Source of the DNA: Candidatus Fimenecus sp.
GTDB taxonomy: Bacteria; Bacillota; Clostridia; Oscillospirales; Acutalibacteraceae
Reading direction: 5' to 3'
Assembly: GCA_052298855.1 (NCBI GenBank)
Contig: DAVZXP010000005.1
Span: forward strand, 109,253 to 173,252
Length of the DNA stretch: 64,000 nucleotides
The notes under the pieces are model-generated. The model made no database searches and was not told where the DNA came from. It saw nothing but the letters and a program-made list of their open reading frames with translations. Made by a program: the position numbers and the translations under genes. Shown here piece by piece: positions 2,085-61,955 of this stretch. How positions within the stretch are numbered: the stretch's first letter is position 1; each line of letters begins with the position of its first letter.

Positions 2085-2795
2085 GTTCAAAAAAAGGGGG
2101 ATAAATTGCTGTTCCCCTGCGCTGTAAAATCAAATTTGCGGATATATAACGGCTATCGGCTGTTATCAAAATTGAATTAAACATCATATCGTAGGGGCGA
2201 ACTGTGTTCGCCTATTTTTATTTTCATATAAAATTTGACAGGCGACCGCAGGTCGCCCCTACGGGTTGTGTGTGTATTTTAATGGCATTTTAACCGGAAA
2301 TCATTATATAACGGCAACAATCAAACGGCGGGAGCAAGCCCCCGCCCTACCGTGTGTAATTAAATTTTAAGGCTTTCATACGGCTTTTATCTAATTTGAA
2401 AATTTGTATGACCGTAGGGACAACCCTTGCGGTTGTCCGTTAATTTGATTTAATATGTAATTTTTTGCGGATTTTATGTCATTTCAGCCGTTAATTATCA
2501 TATATCTGTTAATTTCGCACGGCGGGAGCAAGCCCCCGCCCTACCTCGTCGTCGTTTGCACCGTATCGTTCGCAACAGCCTTTGGCTGTCTCTCACTCAC
2601 TATGCAACTCCTCCTTTTCCGCAAAAATCACGCTCGGCTCGCCTGTTCGGTTGTAAACGCCCTCACGACGGCTTGCTGTCGCTACCAACTTTTGCGGATT
2701 GCGGACAGGGGCAAGCCCTGTCCCTACGGAATAATATCTAATTTGAAAATTTGTGCAAAACAAAGGCTCCCTCGTCAGAGGGAGCCTAATTCATC
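2085..2795. repeat. mosaic REP-like repeat cluster 1
   Basis: Contains GTAGG-flanked GC hairpins at 2191-2212, 2241-2262, 2327-2351, 2414-2438, 2521-2545 and 2703-2727. Also contains a ~155-nt module at 2546-2700. All of these recur in clusters at ~12.0, 34.2 and 61.2 kb. Confidence 0.9.
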
Positions 2796-11976: not shown

Positions 11977-12560
11977 CACAAACACAGGCTCCCTTGTAAA
12001 GGGAGCTGTCGTTTTTTTGGAACAAAAAAATGACTGAGGGATTTTTACAAAATCATATAAAATCAACCTTACAATCCCTCCGAGTTGCCTACGGCAACCC
12101 ACCTCCCTTTACACAAGGGAGGCTGAAATGCGGTTGTCCGCAAACCGCAAAAGTTGGTAGCGACAGCGAGCCGTTGCGAAGGCGTTTACAACCGAACAGG
12201 CGAGCCGAGCGTGATTTTGCGGAAGAGGAGGAGCTGCATAGTGAGTGAGAAACAGCCAAAGGCTGTTGCCAACGATACGGTGCAAATGACGACGTTGTAG
12301 GGCGGTGGCTTGCTGCCGCCGTTAAATCACAACAAATCAAAGGTTACAAGCAATTACATTTTTATATTATATCGTAGGGGCGAACTGTGTTCGCCCGTTT
12401 TTAATTTGCTATGAATTGACGGGCGACCGCAGGTCGCCCCTACGGATTGACACTAAATTTAATTTTACAGCAACCGTTGGTCGTTATATATCCGCAAATT
12501 CGTAGGGCGGCAGCAAGCCACCGCCCTACACCGTTGAATGTAACTTTTAATTCGTTCGAA
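11977..12560. repeat. mosaic REP-like repeat cluster 2
   Basis: Begins with the terminator-like hairpin ggctcccttgtaaagggagc, part of a stretch (11986-12110) shared at ~95% with 61213-61330. Also has the ~155-nt module at 12142-12296 (inverted) and GTAGG hairpins at 12297-12320, 12374-12395, 12422-12443 and 12503-12530. Confidence 0.9.
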
Positions 12561-34174: not shown

Positions 34175-34785
34175 CAGACGGCGAAATTTATATTTTTTAT
34201 TATTTAACGGGTACTTTTACAAAGTACCCGTTTTTAATACCCTTTAGCCTCCCCAAATTTCCTCGTTCAGCGAAGAGCGTGGGCTTGCTCCCGCCCTACC
34301 ACGTCGTCGTTTACGCCGTATCGTTCGCAACAGCCTTTGGCTGTTTCTCACTCACTATGCAACTCCTCCTCTTCCGCAAAAATCACGCTCGGCTCGCCTG
34401 TTCGGTTGTAAACGCCCTCGCAACGGCTCGCTGTCGCTACCGACTTTTGCGGATTTTGGACAACCGCATATTTAGGCTCCCTCTGACGGGCAACATATGC
34501 GACCGCCGCCTGTGACGGATAAAGGGAGCATCTGTTGGCGTAGCGGCCGATTTTGTGCGGCGCTCCAAGCCGCATAAACAAAATCGGGATACAGCAAGAG
34601 GGCAATAGTTGTCATTTTTCTGCGAAAAACGACAGCTCCATCGTCAGAGGGAGCTGTGTCGGACAACCGCAAGGGTTGTCCCTACGGTTGTGCGAATATT
34701 TTAATATCATATCAGCCAAAAATTATCATACATCAACAACAATAAAAAGGGCGAACTGTGTTCGCCCTTTGATAAATTTAATTTA
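34175..34785. repeat. mosaic REP-like repeat cluster 3
   Basis: Has the ~155-nt module at 34301-34455 and a ~133-nt module at 34475-34607 (an inverted copy of 61331-61462). Hairpins lie at 34661-34685 and 34746-34768, the latter an agggcgaactgtgttcgccct stem. Confidence 0.9.
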
Positions 34786-46130: not shown

Positions 46131-46182
46131 ATTTTTAACGATATATAAAAATTTAAGCGGACAGAAATCTGTCCGCTTTTTG

Positions 46183-46659
46183 TTATGTGTTTTTATTAAA
46201 CATATAATCCTCACACCATCTATAAGGATTGTCCTCAATATATTGCCACCTTATTTGGAAATCATATTCATCACGAATTATATGATCGTAAAATCCTTTT
46301 TGCCAAATCGACTTACCGAGTCGCTTAGTTATTACACCTTTAAACTGCTTAATAATGCGAGATATCGTAGGGGCGAACTGTGTTCGCCCGCTAAATGTAT
46401 CTATGAAAACAAGCAGATGAATATGGTTTGGCATAATCACATAGTTTTCAACAGTTACATTTTTATATATTTCGCTTATATTTTTTATTTCTTCTTCAAC
46501 TATTTCCCCTACTTTTGATAGGCGAACACAGTTCGCCCCTACGTGTATATACGATAAAATTGGGTTGCGATTTTCAACACAAACCGTTATAAAATAAACT
46601 CCGTTTTGCGAATAATCATAATTCTTAAGTCTATTTGGCTTTCTTGTTTTGGAATTCAT
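46183..46659 (-). CDS. REP-associated tyrosine transposase (RAYT) / IS200-like Y1 HUH transposase
   Basis: 158 aa with YDYSQNGVYFITVC, the HUH motif PNHIHLL and the Tyr region GFYDHIIRDEYD. No terminal IS ends are visible. Confidence 0.8.
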   Translation of the reverse strand: MNSKTRKPNRLKNYDYSQNGVYFITVCVENRNPILSYIHVGANCVRLSKVGEIVEEEIKNISEIYKNVTVENYVIMPNHIHLLVFIDTFSGRTQFAPTISRIIKQFKGVITKRLGKSIWQKGFYDHIIRDEYDFQIRWQYIEDNPYRWCEDYMFNKNT

Positions 46660-46663
46660 AATT

Positions 46664-49090
46664 TTATATCTTCTTCAAATTCGCCATTTTTGCCATAAGT
46701 TTTTTTGTTCCTACCTTTTGGAAGGCAATTTCAAGGAGCATATCGTTGCCCATAGGTGTTGCTCTCGACACAACGCCGTCTCCGAAAACTCGGTGGCTTA
46801 CGGTGTCGCCGGGCTTGAAATCAAGCTTAACCGTAGAGGCGGATTTGCTCTTTCCTGCGCCGGAAAAGCCTCTGTTTACAGTATTGCTGTGGCTTGAATA
46901 TGAGCCTTGCTGTGCGGAACGGGCAGAGGAAGTCGAGTTATCTCTTGCCGAACCGCCTGAGCCGAAGCTTGAGAACGAGGAATGCCCGAAGAACGGATTG
47001 TCCGAAGAGCGTTCAAGCAAATCGCTCGGAATTTCGTCCAAAAACCTTGACGGTCTGTTGTAGTTTGTAGAGCCGTACATCATTCTCTGCTTTGCATCGG
47101 TAAGATAAAGCTTCTGCTTCGCCCTTGTAATTCCAACGTAGCAAAGGCGACGTTCTTCCTCAACTTCAGCCTCGTTAAACATACTCTGTCTGCCGGGGAA
47201 AACGCCCTCCTCCATACCGGGCATAAACACAACGGGAAATTCAAGTCCCTTTGCGGAGTGGAGGGTCATAAGCACAACCGCATCCGCATCCTGATTGTAG
47301 TTGTCAATATCGGTCATCAACGCAACCTCTTCAAGGAAATCGCCGAGCGTTTTTTCGGGGTCTTCTTCGAAATATCTTGTAATATTTGCGCCCAACTGAT
47401 TGAGGTTTTCCATTCTGTCCTCATACTTTACGGGGTCATCCTTGAGCGAACGGGCATAACCTGTCGTTTCAAGCACTTCTGCTAAAAGTTCAGCCGGAGA
47501 AATCTCCTCAAGCCTTGATATGAAAGCATCTATCATATCTGTAAAGCTTTTTAGCTTTACAGCACTTCGCTTTAATAATTCGTAATTTTCGGCAGTTTTG
47601 AGCACCTCATAAAGCGGTACTCCGAGGGTGTCGGCAATCTGTGAAGCGTTGTTCACGGTGGTGTCGCCTATTCCCCTTTTCGGAGTATTGATAATTCGCA
47701 TAAGCCTTACTTTATCCGAGGTATTGTTGATTACGCTCAGGTATGCCATAGCATCTTTGATTTCCATACGGTCATAGAACTTGTGTCCGCCGATTATCCT
47801 GTACGGAATCGAGTTGCGCATAAGCTCCTGCTCTATGGGGCTTGACATTGCATTCATTCGATACAAAATTGCAAAATCGCTCAATTTACGCTTTCTTCCC
47901 CTGTCATATTCCTCGGAAATCTTTTTAACTATGTATTTAGCCTCTCCCGTTTCATCATTTACGGTACGGCACTCAACCTTTTCGCCTGCACCGTTGGCAG
48001 TCCAAAGATTTTTACCCTTTCTCTCGCTGTTGTTTGAAATTACGGCATTTGCGGCATCAAGAATATTCTGCGTTGAACGGTAGTTCTGCTCAAGTCTAAT
48101 GACAACAGCATCTGAATATCTGTTCTCAAACTGCAAAATATTCTCAATCGTCGCACCTCTGAAACGGTAAATACTCTGATCATCATCACCGACAACGCAA
48201 ATATTTTTATATCCGTCTGCAAGCATTGAGGTGAGCTTATACTGTGCAAGGTTAGTGTCCTGATACTCGTCAACCATAATATGACGAAATCTTCGCTGAT
48301 AGTATTCAAGCACCTCAGGACAGCTCTCAAAGAGCTTAATTGTGTTTACGATAATATCGTCAAAGTCCATAGCGTCAGCCTCTTTAAGCATCTGCTCGTA
48401 CTTTTTATACACCTGACCGATTTTTTCAAGTCTTATGTCGCCCGAATTGTCATTGATAAACTGTTCGGGGGTTATAAGTTGGTCTTTCGCACGGCTGATT
48501 TCATTTAATATTGACTTGTGCGGCAGGAATTTATCGTCAATGTCGAGAAGCCTTTGGCACTCCTTGACAATGCGCTTGCTGTCGTCTGTATCATAGATGG
48601 TAAAATGACTTGAAAAGCCGATTTTGTCGCCGTCACGCCTTAAAATACGCACGCAGGACGAGTGGAAGGTGCTTGCCCATATATCAAGTGCATCTTCACC
48701 TAAAATGAGCGAAAGCCTCTCTTTAAGCTCATTTGCCGCCTTATTCGTAAAGGTAATGGCAAGTATCTGCCACGGTTTCACGGCATTAACGCTCAAAAGG
48801 TCCTTTATGTCCTCATAAACGGTCTTATCCCCGTCAAGATAACGGCGCATTTTGTCAATATCCGTGTCGTCGGGCGTTCTTTCAAGCCACTCGGAATTAT
48901 ACGCATCGCCGTATTTTATAAGGTTTGCAATCCTGTTTACAACGACCGTAGTCTTTCCCGAGCCTGCGCCTGCAAGAATTAAAAGCGGTCCTTTCGTATT
49001 AAAGACCGCTTTCTTCTGCATATCGTTCATTCTCTTAAATTCGTTTTCGATTATCTGTCTTCTTAAAGTTAAAATTTCGCTTTTGTCCAT
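46664..49090 (-). CDS. pcrA: ATP-dependent DNA helicase PcrA (UvrD family)
   Basis: 808 aa with GAGSGKTT, DEYQDTN, TLHSAKGLEF and YVGITRAK. Confidence 0.92.
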   Translation of the reverse strand: MDKSEILTLRRQIIENEFKRMNDMQKKAVFNTKGPLLILAGAGSGKTTVVVNRIANLIKYGDAYNSEWLERTPDDTDIDKMRRYLDGDKTVYEDIKDLLSVNAVKPWQILAITFTNKAANELKERLSLILGEDALDIWASTFHSSCVRILRRDGDKIGFSSHFTIYDTDDSKRIVKECQRLLDIDDKFLPHKSILNEISRAKDQLITPEQFINDNSGDIRLEKIGQVYKKYEQMLKEADAMDFDDIIVNTIKLFESCPEVLEYYQRRFRHIMVDEYQDTNLAQYKLTSMLADGYKNICVVGDDDQSIYRFRGATIENILQFENRYSDAVVIRLEQNYRSTQNILDAANAVISNNSERKGKNLWTANGAGEKVECRTVNDETGEAKYIVKKISEEYDRGRKRKLSDFAILYRMNAMSSPIEQELMRNSIPYRIIGGHKFYDRMEIKDAMAYLSVINNTSDKVRLMRIINTPKRGIGDTTVNNASQIADTLGVPLYEVLKTAENYELLKRSAVKLKSFTDMIDAFISRLEEISPAELLAEVLETTGYARSLKDDPVKYEDRMENLNQLGANITRYFEEDPEKTLGDFLEEVALMTDIDNYNQDADAVVLMTLHSAKGLEFPVVFMPGMEEGVFPGRQSMFNEAEVEEERRLCYVGITRAKQKLYLTDAKQRMMYGSTNYNRPSRFLDEIPSDLLERSSDNPFFGHSSFSSFGSGGSARDNSTSSARSAQQGSYSSHSNTVNRGFSGAGKSKSASTVKLDFKPGDTVSHRVFGDGVVSRATPMGNDMLLEIAFQKVGTKKLMAKMANLKKI

Positions 49091-61174: not shown

Positions 61175-61955
61175 ATATCATACCGTATGGACAGCCCTTG
61201 CGGCTGTCCGTCAAAGGCTCCCTTGTAAAGGGAGCTGTCATTTTTTGGAAACAAAAAATGACTGAGGGATTTTATAAAATCATATAAATCAACCTTACAA
61301 TCCCTCCGAGTTGCCTACGGCAACCCACCTATTGCCCTCTTGCGGTATCCCGATTTTGTTTATGCGGCTTGGAGTGCCGCACAAAATCGACCGTTGCGCC
61401 AACAGATGCTCCATTTATCCGCCACAGGCGGCGGTCGCATATGTTGCCCATCAGAGGAAGGCTTAATATCTTGTACGATTGAAAATGGCATTAAAATCCA
61501 CGCACAACCCGTAGGGGCGAACTGTGTTCGCCTGTCAAAAATTTATATGAAAATAAAAATAGACGAACACAGTTCGCCCCTACGATATGATGTTTAATTC
61601 AATTTTAATAACAACCGTTAATTATCATATATCCGTAAATTTCCTCGGCGGGAGCAAGCCCCCGCCCTACCGTATGAAAATGAATTTGTGTGTTTCACAA
61701 TCCCCCCGAGTTGCCTACGGCAACCCACCTCCCTTTACAAGGGAGGCTGAACGCACGAATTGAATTTGATGTGAATTTCAGCAGGGCTTGCCCCTGTCCG
61801 CAATCCGCAAAAGTTGGTAGCGACAGTGAGCCGTCGTGAGGGCGTTTACAACCGAACAGGCGAGCCGAGCGTGATTTTTGCGGAAAGGAGGAGCAGCGGA
61901 ATGAGTGCGAGGCGATAAAAAAATCGCCGCAAGCGATATGTAGCTTGCGACGACG
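61175..61955. repeat. mosaic REP-like repeat cluster 4 (abuts tRNA-Val)
   Basis: Hairpins at 61185-61209, 61511-61532, 61562-61583, 61647-61671 and 61782-61799. Shared modules at 61213-61330, 61331-61462 and 61803-61955. Confidence 0.9.

What the first reader, a model, noticed from the sequence alone, without database searches (positions are those of the whole stretch)
46183..46659. RAYT-type transposase gene carries the REP itself as a 22-bp perfect inverted repeat inside its coding sequence, bracketing the HUH motif
Seen: gtaggggcgaactgtgttcgcc (46367-46388) and its exact reverse complement ggcgaacacagttcgcccctac (46521-46542) lie within the ORF, 132 bp apart. They encode ...SGRTQFAPT... 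and ...VGANCVRL... on either side of PNHIHLL. The same 22-mer is the commonest REP unit in the intergenic clusters, where two copies sit ~28 nt apart (for example 61511-61583) with the same gatatc-type left flank. No REPs flank the gene externally: it is wedged between the pcrA stop (4 nt away) and a terminator. Established: RAYT genes are normally flanked by their REPs, not interrupted by them. Inference: the intergenic doublets may be internally deleted, MITE-like derivatives of this gene segment. Alternatively the gene may carry its own recognition hairpins for autoregulation or self-mobilisation.
Basis: partly seen in the sequence, partly recalled or inferred. Interest (0 to 1): 0.65.

Follow-up and report, generated by a model that had tools for sequence, protein, structure and literature searches.

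The report
Transposase gene carrying its own REPs
A domesticated transposase gene (RAYT) of a gut Ruminococcus-like bacterium carries, in frame, two copies of the short DNA hairpin (REP) that it is thought to spread; this was already reported for its subfamily, but here the pair is fixed, kept at the DNA level, and seems to replace the usual flanking copies.

Summary
GTAGGGGCGAACTGTGTTCGCC (46367-46388, + strand) and its exact reverse complement (46521-46542) lie inside the 158-aa ORF 46183-46659 (-). They encode G91-T98 and V40-L47, on either side of PNHIHLL.

The ORF is a RAYT/TnpAREP-type HUH-Y1 enzyme, closest to E. coli TnpAREP (PDB 4ER8). Each arm is a complete GTAG-headed REP, the same unit as in three intergenic doublets of the window.

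The arrangement is not peculiar to this gene. In 64 of 81 homologues (38-100% aa identity) both hairpins sit at the same two loops. They have about 47 different stem sequences, all keep pairing, and they are read in different frames. They are far more stable than synonymous recodings. In an 80%-identical relative they are almost unchanged against 22% divergence elsewhere. So the DNA is conserved, not the peptide.

Genes with both internal REPs mostly lack flanking REPs. Genes that lost one or both mostly have flanking REPs (p=0.002).

Best reading: a REPtron whose two REP ends lie inside the ORF. The idea that the doublets are deletion derivatives of the gene segment has modest support. Autoregulation is untested.

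The parts
46183..46659 (-). RAYT / TnpAREP-type HUH-Y1 gene, 158 aa. HUH = H79, H81. Predicted catalytic Y140 with N144 (YIEDNP). GTAG-contact equivalents W119, Q120, D125, H126, R129.
   Evidence: ORF. Pfam Y1_Tnp 25.4 bits, cut-off 23. NCBIfam REP_Tyr_transpos 69 bits, below cut-off 80. PDB 4ER8 E=1e-9 with the aligned motif block. AF2 model pLDDT 83, best TM 0.64 to 4ER8.
46521..46542 (-). Arm 1: a REP with its GTAG head on the gene's sense strand (GTAGGGGCGAACTGTGTTCGCC; 7-bp stem, 3-nt loop). It encodes V40-L47 and is modelled as a beta-hairpin between beta1 and alphaA. Its flanks resemble the 'R' end of the window's doublets.
46367..46389 (+). Arm 2: the same REP with its GTAG head on the antisense strand (8-bp stem). 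It encodes G91-T98 in the beta3-alphaC loop, just after the HUH strand. Its outer flank gatatc matches the 'L' end of the doublets.
46390..46520 (-). Segment enclosed by the arms. It codes alphaA-beta2-beta3, including PNHIHLL (46411-46431).
46664..49090 (-). pcrA/UvrD-type helicase gene, ending 4 nt before the RAYT ATG. Probably co-transcribed, perhaps translationally coupled. This synteny holds only in close relatives.
46156..46182 (.). GC-rich hairpin with T-runs on both strands, between the convergent LUD-domain gene and the RAYT gene. Terminator-like, not a REP.
   Evidence: Sequence.
2191..2262 (.). Intergenic REP doublet (REPIN-like), heads outward, 28-nt spacer. The L end is GCGAAC type and the R end is GCGACC type.
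12374..12443 (.). Intergenic REP doublet with a 26-nt spacer. The spacer aligns as 20 nt from the L-proximal end plus 6 nt from the R-proximal end of the gene's 132-nt segment.
61511..61583 (.). Intergenic REP doublet with a 29-nt spacer. It is the same element as 2191-2262 in the opposite orientation.
34745..34766 (+). Single copy of the hairpin without the GTAG head (AAAAGGGCGAACTGTGTTCGCC).

Best explanation
The gene is a RAYT/TnpAREP of the subclass-2.4 (group 4) type, and its two cognate REPs lie inside the ORF instead of beside it.

Shown:
- Each arm is a full REP, a GTAG guide plus a GC-rich hairpin.
- One arm has its head on each strand, heads outward. This is the geometry of the genome's intergenic REP doublets and of the REP pair that flanks classical REPtrons.
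- The arms occupy two loops, beta1-alphaA and beta3-alphaC.
- The nucleotide hairpins are conserved, not the peptides.
- In each genome the arms match that genome's own REPs.
- Lineages that lost an internal arm tend to have flanking REPs.

Inferred:
- The enzyme recognises these hairpins on single-stranded DNA, as E. coli TnpAREP does.
- The internal pair is kept because the gene needs a linked REP pair in cis. It would serve as the resident ends of the REPtron, and possibly as the source of the short doublets.
- The encoded peptides are incidental passengers in tolerant loops.
For: Family and fold. The GTAG-contact residues of 4ER8 listed by Quentin et al. (W94, Q95, E100, H101, R104) correspond to W119, Q120, D125, H126, R129 when the motif block aligned is applied to the window protein.

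Conserved architecture:
- 64 of 81 homologues have both arms at the same positions. There are 49 and 46 distinct cores.
- Arm-to-arm identity past the head is 0.91 within a gene and 0.47 between genes.

The nucleotide is conserved, not the peptide:
- Arm 1 is read as VGANCVRP or xRGELCSP. Arm 2 is read as ..APT or ..PPLQ.
- Native hairpins average -14.9 kcal/mol against -5.7 for synonymous recodings.
- 6 of 8 stem pairs show double-sided changes.
- Where the two arms differ, 14 stem pairs differ on both sides and stay paired within each arm. The GTAG heads differ at 0 of 152 positions.
- In the 80%-identical relative, 1 of 46 arm nucleotides changed against 102 of 431 elsewhere (p=2e-4). The one change is in a loop.

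Link to genomic REPs:
- 29 of 80 loci carry the same REP outside the gene.
- In L040 and L050 the external doublets are built from the same two variants as the arms.

Substitution for flanking REPs:
- 44 of 60 genes with two or more internal REPs have no REP within 200 nt.
- 11 of 15 genes with fewer have flanking REPs (Fisher p=0.0017).
- The losses are scattered in the tree.
- Where arm 1 is missing there is an upstream (+) REP (L010, L033, L049). Where arm 2 is missing there is a downstream (-) REP (L042).
Against: - No experiment shows that this enzyme binds or cuts its own arms.
- The match between arms and genomic REPs, and even hairpin maintenance, could come from gene conversion by the many external copies, without selection on the internal ones.
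- The flanking-versus-internal association rests on 15 loci, on hairpin detection by my own rule, and on MAG contigs.
- The covariation alignment was pre-selected for paired sequences.
- 16 of 60 genes have both internal and flanking REPs, so substitution is not strict.
- Extra REP copies and tandem REP fragments in the same loops show that these loops simply tolerate REP insertion.
Confidence: 0.55

Rival explanations
1. Passive passengers. REPs were inserted into two permissive surface loops of an ancestral RAYT. They have no role there and are kept similar to the genome's REPs only by gene conversion or RAYT-mediated strand exchange with the many external copies.
For: - Quentin et al. 2018 interpret the subclass 2.4 insertions this way, as a peripheral loop away from the DNA-binding and catalytic sites.
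- The same loops hold extra REPs, whole doublets and tandem REP fragments in other homologues (L008, L013, L080, P0133, P0141, P0146).
- The length of the stretch containing loop A ranges from 43 to 111 aa, and of the stretch containing loop B from 10 to 93 aa.
- 7-8 genes have no recognisable arms (decayed in L041, L072), yet HUH and in all but one the Y..NP motif are intact.
Against: - The positions are fixed in 64 of 81 species-level homologues.
- The arms are almost invariant over 22% divergence.
- Loss of arms is associated with gain of flanking REPs in scattered lineages. Pure neutrality does not predict this.
Confidence: 0.3
2. Master-copy or MITE origin. The REP-bounded 176-nt gene segment is the progenitor of the intergenic doublets, which arose from it by deletion of the central ~100 nt.
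For: - Arm 1 shares the R end's flanks: outer (a)ccc in relatives, inner t[ag]tcaaa.
- Arm 2 shares the L end's outer atatc.
- These flanks are not part of the general REP consensus Y|REP|CGY seen in 144 non-gene copies.
- The gene-side flanks encode residues conserved family-wide (PT-ISR, LS).
- The spacer of doublet 12374 aligns to the two ends of the 132-nt segment (p about 0.007).
- In L036 a REP next to the gene carries 28 nt of the gene's coding flank.
- In L040 the adjacent doublet has the arms' two variants in the same order.
Against: - The spacers of the other two doublets show no significant similarity (p 0.1-0.3).
- The flank matches are only 4-8 nt, in AT-rich DNA.
- Two of the three doublets are copies of one composite element.
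- No full-length copy of the 176-nt segment was seen outside a gene.
- The stem variant of most R ends (GCGACC) differs from arm 1 (GCGAAC).
Confidence: 0.35
3. Cis-regulation. The hairpins, or in this gene the 24-bp arm-to-arm stem, act in the mRNA or in single-stranded DNA to hold RAYT expression down. They could do this on their own or by binding the RAYT protein as negative feedback.
For: - The sense RNA folds with the arms paired: -67.5 kcal/mol, z = -7.
- The local hairpins are stable as DNA, -7 to -10 kcal/mol.
- Arm 1 presents GUAG plus hairpin in the transcript.
- The need to match the enzyme's specificity would explain why the arms track the genome's REP.
Against: - No data on expression or RNA binding.
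- Across homologues, differences between arms are compensated within each arm, which weakens any long-range stem.
- Genes with flanking REPs instead of internal ones would then lack this control.
Confidence: 0.15
4. The peptides VGANCVRL and GRTQFAPT are the selected feature (structural or DNA-contacting), and the DNA palindrome is a by-product.
For: Arm 1's peptide is modelled as a beta-hairpin with pLDDT above 80. VG and PT are nearly invariant in close homologues.
Against: - The same nucleotides are read in different frames.
- The peptides differ completely between homologues (VGDDAHIVP, VGEGLCALP, VGRGALTPP ...), while the two arms stay reverse complements of each other.
- The hairpins far exceed what the codons require.
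- pLDDT over the block containing arm 2's peptide (residues 91-100) is 67.
Confidence: 0.03
5. Artefact or switch. Either an assembly or collapse error created the repeats, or the inverted repeat drives inversion of the 132-bp segment as an on/off switch.
For: A perfect inverted repeat could in principle support inversion. Inversion would give a stop codon soon after arm 1 (read).
Against: - The same structure occurs in independent assemblies and contigs.
- The only 'skip' joints seen in the contigs are short doublets from elsewhere laid on the two arms. No inverted form was seen, although contigs cannot show rare variants.
Confidence: 0.03

Closest known systems
Subclass 2.4 TnpAREP (= group 4 RAYT of Bertels et al.) with in-frame REP insertions; Quentin, Siguier, Chandler & Fichant 2018, BMC Genomics 19:475 (PMC6006769)
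   Same: - HuH motif NH[IFV]H (here NHIH), W motif WQ, Y motif YIxNNP-like (here YIEDNP).
- Canonical GTAG REPs whose stem bottom is three G-C pairs.
- REPs inserted in frame inside the tnpAREP gene, with a variable beta3-alphaC loop.
- A double-foot REP is present in the window (12502-12529).
   Different: - The paper describes the insertions as additional to flanking REPs, generally between HuH and Y, variable, and probably neutral.
- Here there are no flanking REPs.
- One arm lies before the HuH motif (beta1-alphaA), the other after it.
- The pair is positionally fixed across most of 80 species and maintained at the nucleotide level.
- The pair is inversely associated with flanking REPs.
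- Firmicutes/Clostridia are not highlighted for subclass 2.4 in that paper.
E. coli REPtron: TnpAREP (RayT/YafM, PDB 4ER8) flanked by BIME/REP pairs; Ton-Hoang 2012, Messing 2012, Corneloup 2021 (PMC8266576)
   Same: - HUH-Y1 fold (TM 0.64).
- Conserved GTAG-contact residues.
- GTAG-headed hairpins in inverted pairs linked to the gene.
   Different: - E. coli REPs are bulged, longer, and lie outside the ORF.
- E. coli belongs to subclass 2.2.
- Biochemistry exists only for groups 2 and 3.
REPIN-RAYT systems of Pseudomonas (Bertels & Rainey 2011, PMC3116915)
   Same: Two inverted REPs with a short spacer form the dispersed unit. A RAYT gene is linked to a copy of it. REP and RAYT co-evolve.
   Different: There the REPINs flank the RAYT. 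Here the linked pair is split by 132 nt of coding sequence that includes the catalytic HUH strand.
IS200/IS605 insertion sequences (IS608, ISDra2) and their transposase-less derivatives
   Same: Same enzyme fold. Subterminal hairpins with a 5' guide tetranucleotide. Short derivatives keep only the ends.
   Different: - In an IS both hairpins are on the same strand and lie outside tnpA, and the element is multi-copy.
- Here the hairpins are on opposite strands and inside the ORF.
- Here the gene is the only copy found in the window and keeps its neighbours in close relatives.
REP insertions in ordinary protein-coding genes (Di Nocera et al. 2013, PMC3733652)
   Same: GTAG REPs can sit in frame in coding sequences, notably in replication and repair genes.
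   Different: Those are sporadic single insertions. Here the host gene is the REP's own enzyme, and the pair is ancient and conserved.

Membership tests
RAYT / TnpAREP (class 2 TnpAY1, HUH-Y1) | HUH motif plus catalytic Tyr in a Y...NP motif | tested here: met
   PNHIHLL (H79, H81) and Y140-IED-N144-P145. These columns are invariant in 33 homologues and align to the E. coli motifs.
RAYT / TnpAREP (class 2 TnpAY1, HUH-Y1) | Profile match above the curated threshold | tested here: inconclusive
   Pfam Y1_Tnp scores 25.4 against cut-off 23, so it passes. NCBIfam REP_Tyr_transpos scores 69.2 against cut-off 80, so it fails the equivalog threshold.
RAYT / TnpAREP (class 2 TnpAY1, HUH-Y1) | IS200/TnpAREP fold | tested here: met
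   AF2 model pLDDT 83. Foldseek gives 4ER8 TM 0.64 (rmsd 3.7) and ISDra2/IS608 TnpA at E about 1e-7.
RAYT / TnpAREP (class 2 TnpAY1, HUH-Y1) | Association with GTAG-headed REPs dispersed in the genome | tested here: met
   Eight or more copies of the same REP in the 64-kb window, all non-gene copies intergenic. Word depth at the arms is 6-26 times gene depth in two of four metagenomes.
RAYT / TnpAREP (class 2 TnpAY1, HUH-Y1) | Single copy, vertically inherited at short range | tested here: inconclusive
   One copy in the window. pcrA-RAYT-LUD synteny is kept in relatives at 80-94% identity. The whole genome is not available, and some homologues are duplicated (L007, L027, L048).
RAYT / TnpAREP (class 2 TnpAY1, HUH-Y1) | ssDNA cleavage and strand transfer at REPs | not testable with these tools
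   Needs a biochemical assay such as the CST assay of Corneloup et al. 2021.
TnpAREP subclass 2.4 (Quentin et al. 2018) | Key motifs NH[IFV]H / WQ / YIxNNP | tested here: met
   NHIH, IWQK and YIEDNP. The third Y-motif position is D rather than N. Compared with Table 1 of the paper. No reference 2.4 sequence was available for a direct alignment.
TnpAREP subclass 2.4 (Quentin et al. 2018) | Long canonical or double-foot GTAG REPs, with REPs inserted in frame in tnpAREP | tested here: met
   Arms at 46367 and 46542. Double-foot REP at 12502-12529. Paper text.
TnpAREP subclass 2.4 (Quentin et al. 2018) | REPs also flank the gene (REPtron arrangement) | tested here: not met
   There is no GTAGG hairpin within 9 kb of the window's gene other than the arms. 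44 of 60 two-arm homologues also lack flanking REPs.
REP (GTAG super-family) | 5' GT[AG]G tetranucleotide at the foot of a GC-rich hairpin, repeated in intergenic DNA | tested here: met
   The head is invariant in 47 distinct arms.
REPIN (REP doublet forming hairpin) | Two REPs in inverted orientation separated by a short spacer, dispersed as a unit | tested here: met
   This row refers to the intergenic doublets. Window doublets have 26-29-nt spacers. There are 32 head-out doublets in the 80 metagenome loci, most with spacers of 22-35 nt; two of them are in-gene arm pairs. The in-gene pair has the same geometry but a 132-nt spacer, so it is not itself a typical REPIN.
IS200/IS605 insertion sequence | tnpA flanked by LE and RE hairpins on one strand; multi-copy, near-identical copies | tested here: not met
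   The hairpins are on opposite strands and inside the ORF. There is a single copy in syntenic context. NCBIfam transpos_IS200 scores 18 bits against cut-off 55.

The most novel reading that the evidence does not exclude
The RAYT open reading frame itself contains the founding copy of its mobile element. The two in-frame REPs are the true ends of the REPtron, and the short intergenic doublets are born from this gene segment by internal deletion. Transfer of the gene alone could then seed a new REP population, and REP and enzyme would be physically unable to part. The ends would be either inside or just outside the ORF, but always linked.
Probability: 0.3. Interest if true: 0.7.

Novelty: new member of a known kind. 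Interest (0 to 1): 0.42.

Why it matters
How REPs and REPINs arise, and why each RAYT stays matched to its own REP, are open questions.

A RAYT clade has its cognate REP pair written into the coding sequence at fixed positions. Here that clade was sampled from 81 genes within a family of at least 1,577 sequence clusters. The pair is maintained as DNA and is exchangeable with flanking copies. This gives a direct handle on both questions.

- The gene provides its own substrate for biochemical assays.
- Synonymous recoding separates DNA-level from protein-level roles.
- The arms give a built-in reference point for reconstructing REP population history.

It also matters for annotation. The odd peptides (VGANCVRP, GRTQFAPT, GEHxSPLQ ...) that recur in these proteins and in small 'hypothetical' ORFs are translated REPs.

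If the pair is only a tolerated passenger, the finding is an ordinary example of a feature published in 2018.

Tried and rejected
1. Assembly artefact: rejected.
2. Peptide-level conservation: rejected by frame changes and recoding.
3. Conserved pcrA linkage as a functional HUH-helicase pair: it holds only in close relatives. It is absent in 80 distant loci.
4. Evidence for excision or inversion of the 132-nt segment in public runs: only Logan contigs were available. The 'skips 130' joint carries 11 foreign letters and is a doublet from elsewhere. This test was uninformative for rare events.
5. Rfam: no family covers the REPs, only two tRNAs were found.
6. Spacer homology between the doublets and the gene segment: significant for one doublet only.
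7. 'No arms means no REPs in that genome': rejected. Arm-less genes sit among REPs. This led to the complementary internal/flanking pattern.
8. Literature searches for REPs inside RAYT genes in Firmicutes found nothing beyond Quentin 2018 and Di Nocera 2013. One search was too broad to be useful.
9. Direct alignment to a named subclass 2.4 reference protein: not possible, because no accession look-up was available.

Full report
OBSERVATION. The 22-mer GTAGGGGCGAACTGTGTTCGCC is at 46367-46388 on the + strand. Its exact reverse complement is at 46521-46542, 132 nt away. Both lie inside ORF 46183-46659 on the - strand, 158 aa. In the sense strand the first arm reads V40-G-A-N-C-V-R-L47 and the second reads G91-R-T-Q-F-A-P-T98. 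PNHIHLL (residues 77-83) lies between them. About 1e-8 such repeats are expected in a 477-nt sequence. Shuffles of the window gave no match to the 22-mer. Each arm is by itself a hairpin, with a 7-8-bp GC-rich stem and a 3-nt loop, preceded by GTAG. The inverted repeat is therefore two copies of one hairpin element in opposite orientation, heads outward.

The same unit forms three intergenic doublets (2191/2262, 12374/12443, 61511/61583; spacers 26-29 nt) and one headless copy at 34745. All lie downstream of genes. It is the commonest of at least three GTAG-headed hairpin families in the window. The gene starts 4 nt after the pcrA stop and ends at a terminator-like hairpin. No other GTAGG hairpin lies within 9 kb. 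Independent assemblies and contigs carry the same structure.

THE GENE. Pfam Y1_Tnp is passed (25.4 bits against 23). NCBIfam REP_Tyr_transpos scores 69 bits, below its equivalog cut-off of 80. A profile of 33 homologues finds E. coli TnpAREP (4ER8) at E=1e-9. An AlphaFold model (pLDDT 83) superposes best on 4ER8 (TM 0.64) and on IS608/ISDra2 transposases. H79, H81, Y140 and N144 are invariant. The residues that contact GTAG in 4ER8 have equivalents here: W119, Q120, D125, H126, R129. In the model the arm 1 peptide is a beta-hairpin between beta1 and alphaA. The arm 2 peptide is a low-confidence loop between beta3, the HUH strand, and alphaC.

COMPARATIVE EVIDENCE. Eighty species-level loci (38-71% aa identity; Oscillospiraceae, Acutalibacteraceae, Christensenellales, Tissierellales, Clostridiaceae, Erysipelotrichales and a few other phyla) were fetched. 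Counting the window, 64 of 81 genes have a GTAGG-headed hairpin on the sense strand near nt 115 and another on the antisense strand near nt 272-310. Nine genes have one arm and eight were scored as having none. One of those eight (L022) is truncated at its 5' end and does carry both arms.

The hairpin sequences differ widely, with 49 and 46 distinct cores and two length classes. Within a gene, however, the two arms are 91% identical past the head, against 47% between genes. Several results show that the nucleotide sequence is conserved, not the peptide:
- The same DNA is read as VGANCVRP or as xRGELCSP at arm 1, and as ..APT or ..PPLQ at arm 2.
- The third frame of GTAGGG would contain a TAG stop. 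It occurs only in a pseudogene (L074).
- Native arms fold at -14.9 kcal/mol on average, against -5.7 for synonymous recodings. The arm-to-arm match exceeds all 200 recodings in 60 of 64 genes.
- In 47 distinct arms of the 8-bp class, 6 of 8 stem pairs show changes on both sides. That set was pre-selected for pairing, so only the covariation counts are informative.
- Where the two arms of one gene differ, 14 stem pairs differ on both sides and remain paired within each arm. The GTAG heads never differ. The local hairpin plus head is therefore the conserved unit, as expected for a REP.
- In relatives with conserved pcrA-RAYT-LUD synteny, 22% nucleotide divergence over the gene contrasts with one change in the 46 arm nucleotides, in a loop (p=2e-4).

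RELATION TO THE GENOME'S REPS. In 29 of 80 loci the arm sequence recurs outside the gene within the 20 kb held, often directly beside it. In L040 and L050 an external doublet is made of the same two variants as the arms. A scan of metagenome contigs with the window's 22-mer gave 148 copies in 80 loci, of which four lie in RAYT genes. Most of the 30 non-gene head-out doublets have spacers of 22-35 nt. The only sequence conserved beyond the REP is Y|REP|CGY.

Against that background the window's doublets have two distinguishable ends. The gene's arms match them one to one:
- Arm 2 shares the outer atatc of the 'L' end.
- Arm 1 shares the inner t[ag]tcaaa of the 'R' end and, in close relatives, its outer ccc.

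The gene-side flanks encode residues conserved across the family (PT-ISR, LS). This favours the direction gene to doublet. One doublet spacer aligns to the two ends of the 132-nt segment (p about 0.007); the other two do not. In L036 a REP just downstream of the gene carries 28 nt of the gene's coding flank.

INTERNAL VERSUS FLANKING. Homologues without arms are not REP-free. They have REPs immediately up- and downstream of the gene, the classical REPtron arrangement (L004, L030, L068). The counts below cover the 75 loci with enough flank.

| Internal REPs in the gene | Loci | With a REP within 200 nt | Without |
|---|---|---|---|
| Two or more | 60 | 16 | 44 |
| Fewer than two | 15 | 11 | 4 |

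Fisher p=0.0017. The genes with fewer arms are scattered among two-arm relatives. Where arm 1 alone is missing, a (+) REP lies upstream. Where arm 2 alone is missing, a (-) REP lies downstream. This suggests that a linked, head-out REP pair is retained, either inside or outside the ORF. The sample is small and not phylogenetically corrected.

WHAT IS KNOWN. Quentin et al. 2018 (PMC6006769) classify TnpAY1 proteins. They state that in subclass 2.4 (group 4 of Bertels et al. 2017) REPs are found inserted in frame within the tnpAREP genes, in addition to the flanking REPs. [quoted passage not shown] The window's protein has that subclass's motifs and REP type. Di Nocera et al. 2013 report REPs inside other genes.

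I did not find the following described in the papers I could search:
- The second arm, in the beta1-alphaA loop.
- The fixed pair enclosing the HUH strand.
- The nucleotide-level maintenance with frame switching.
- The inverse relation to flanking REPs.
- The correspondence between the arms and the doublet ends.

The family is large: 35,777 50%-identity clusters at E<=1e-3 and 1,577 at E<=1e-30. Both loops are hot spots for extra REP-derived sequence.

MECHANISM. Shown: the anatomy, the DNA-level conservation, the match to each genome's REPs, and the internal/flanking pattern. Inferred from the biochemistry of groups 2 and 3: the enzyme binds GTAG-headed hairpins on single-stranded DNA and cuts next to them.

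My best reading (about 0.55) is a REPtron whose two ends lie inside the ORF. The pair would be kept because the system needs a gene-linked REP pair, and the peptides would be incidental.

Rivals that are not mutually exclusive:
- Passive passengers homogenised by conversion (0.3).
- The gene segment as progenitor of the doublets (0.35).
- Hairpin-mediated control of expression (0.15). In this gene the mRNA minimum-energy fold pairs the arms with each other.

Peptide function, artefact and inversion switch are unlikely.

VERDICT. The phenomenon belongs to a known kind (REPs in frame in subclass 2.4 RAYT genes). The comparative results make it a useful, testable case, not a new category.

Noticed in passing
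window 2325-2350, 2519-2544, 61647-61670, 12502-12529; 2414-2440, 34661-34685, 2703-2727: Two further GTAG-REP families (CGGGGGCTTGCTCCCGCC type, including a double-foot copy, and GGACAACCCTTGCGGTTGTCC type) occur in the same intergenic clusters. The window has only one RAYT gene. A Flavonifractor homologue (L062) carries CGGGGGCTTGCCCCCGCC arms, so a second RAYT paralogue is probably encoded elsewhere in this genome.
   Followed up: partly
window 2100-2360, 12270-12540 (-), 61420-61690 (-): The doublets are part of a larger composite repeat of about 230 nt: a REP of the second family, a ~60-nt conserved linker (aaatttgcggatatataacg...), then the doublet.
   Followed up: partly
window 46657-46666: The RAYT ATG lies 4 nt after the stop of a pcrA/UvrD-type helicase gene, with no obvious ribosome-binding site of its own, so translational coupling is possible. 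The pcrA-RAYT-LUD order is kept in relatives at 80-94% identity but in none of 80 distant loci.
   Followed up: yes
P0133, P0146, P0141, P0135; L008:9986-10513; L013:289-816; L080:9986-10630: In other homologues the same two loops hold tandem REP fragments translated as peptide repeats (RPAKTDGV x5, NRPHDSPI x6), extra REPs, or a whole doublet within one loop. The segments containing the two loops span 43-111 and 10-93 residues across representatives.
   Followed up: partly
L046:7491-8085: An array of about eight to ten REPs at ~82-nt spacing lies directly upstream of a RAYT gene that has lost its second internal arm.
   Followed up: no
L036:10512-10560: A REP just downstream of the RAYT gene is followed by 28 nt nearly identical to the coding sequence that follows arm 1 inside the gene. 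This looks like a one-ended copy starting at the REP.
   Followed up: partly
window 46180-46518 (+): A 112-aa antisense ORF overlaps the RAYT gene and reads arm 2 as RRGELCSPA. It is most likely spurious, but it shows how translated REPs can create 'hypothetical proteins'.
   Followed up: no
L007:10001-11259; L027; L048: Some homologues are tandemly or locally duplicated (two identical copies 788 nt apart in L007, up to three copies or fragments in L048). This is unlike the single-copy picture in the window.
   Followed up: no
metagenome loci L088-L167: The exact 22-mer REP of this window occurs in termite-, ruminant-, pig- and human-gut metagenome contigs from many different genomic contexts. 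One REP sequence is therefore shared across many taxa.
   Followed up: partly
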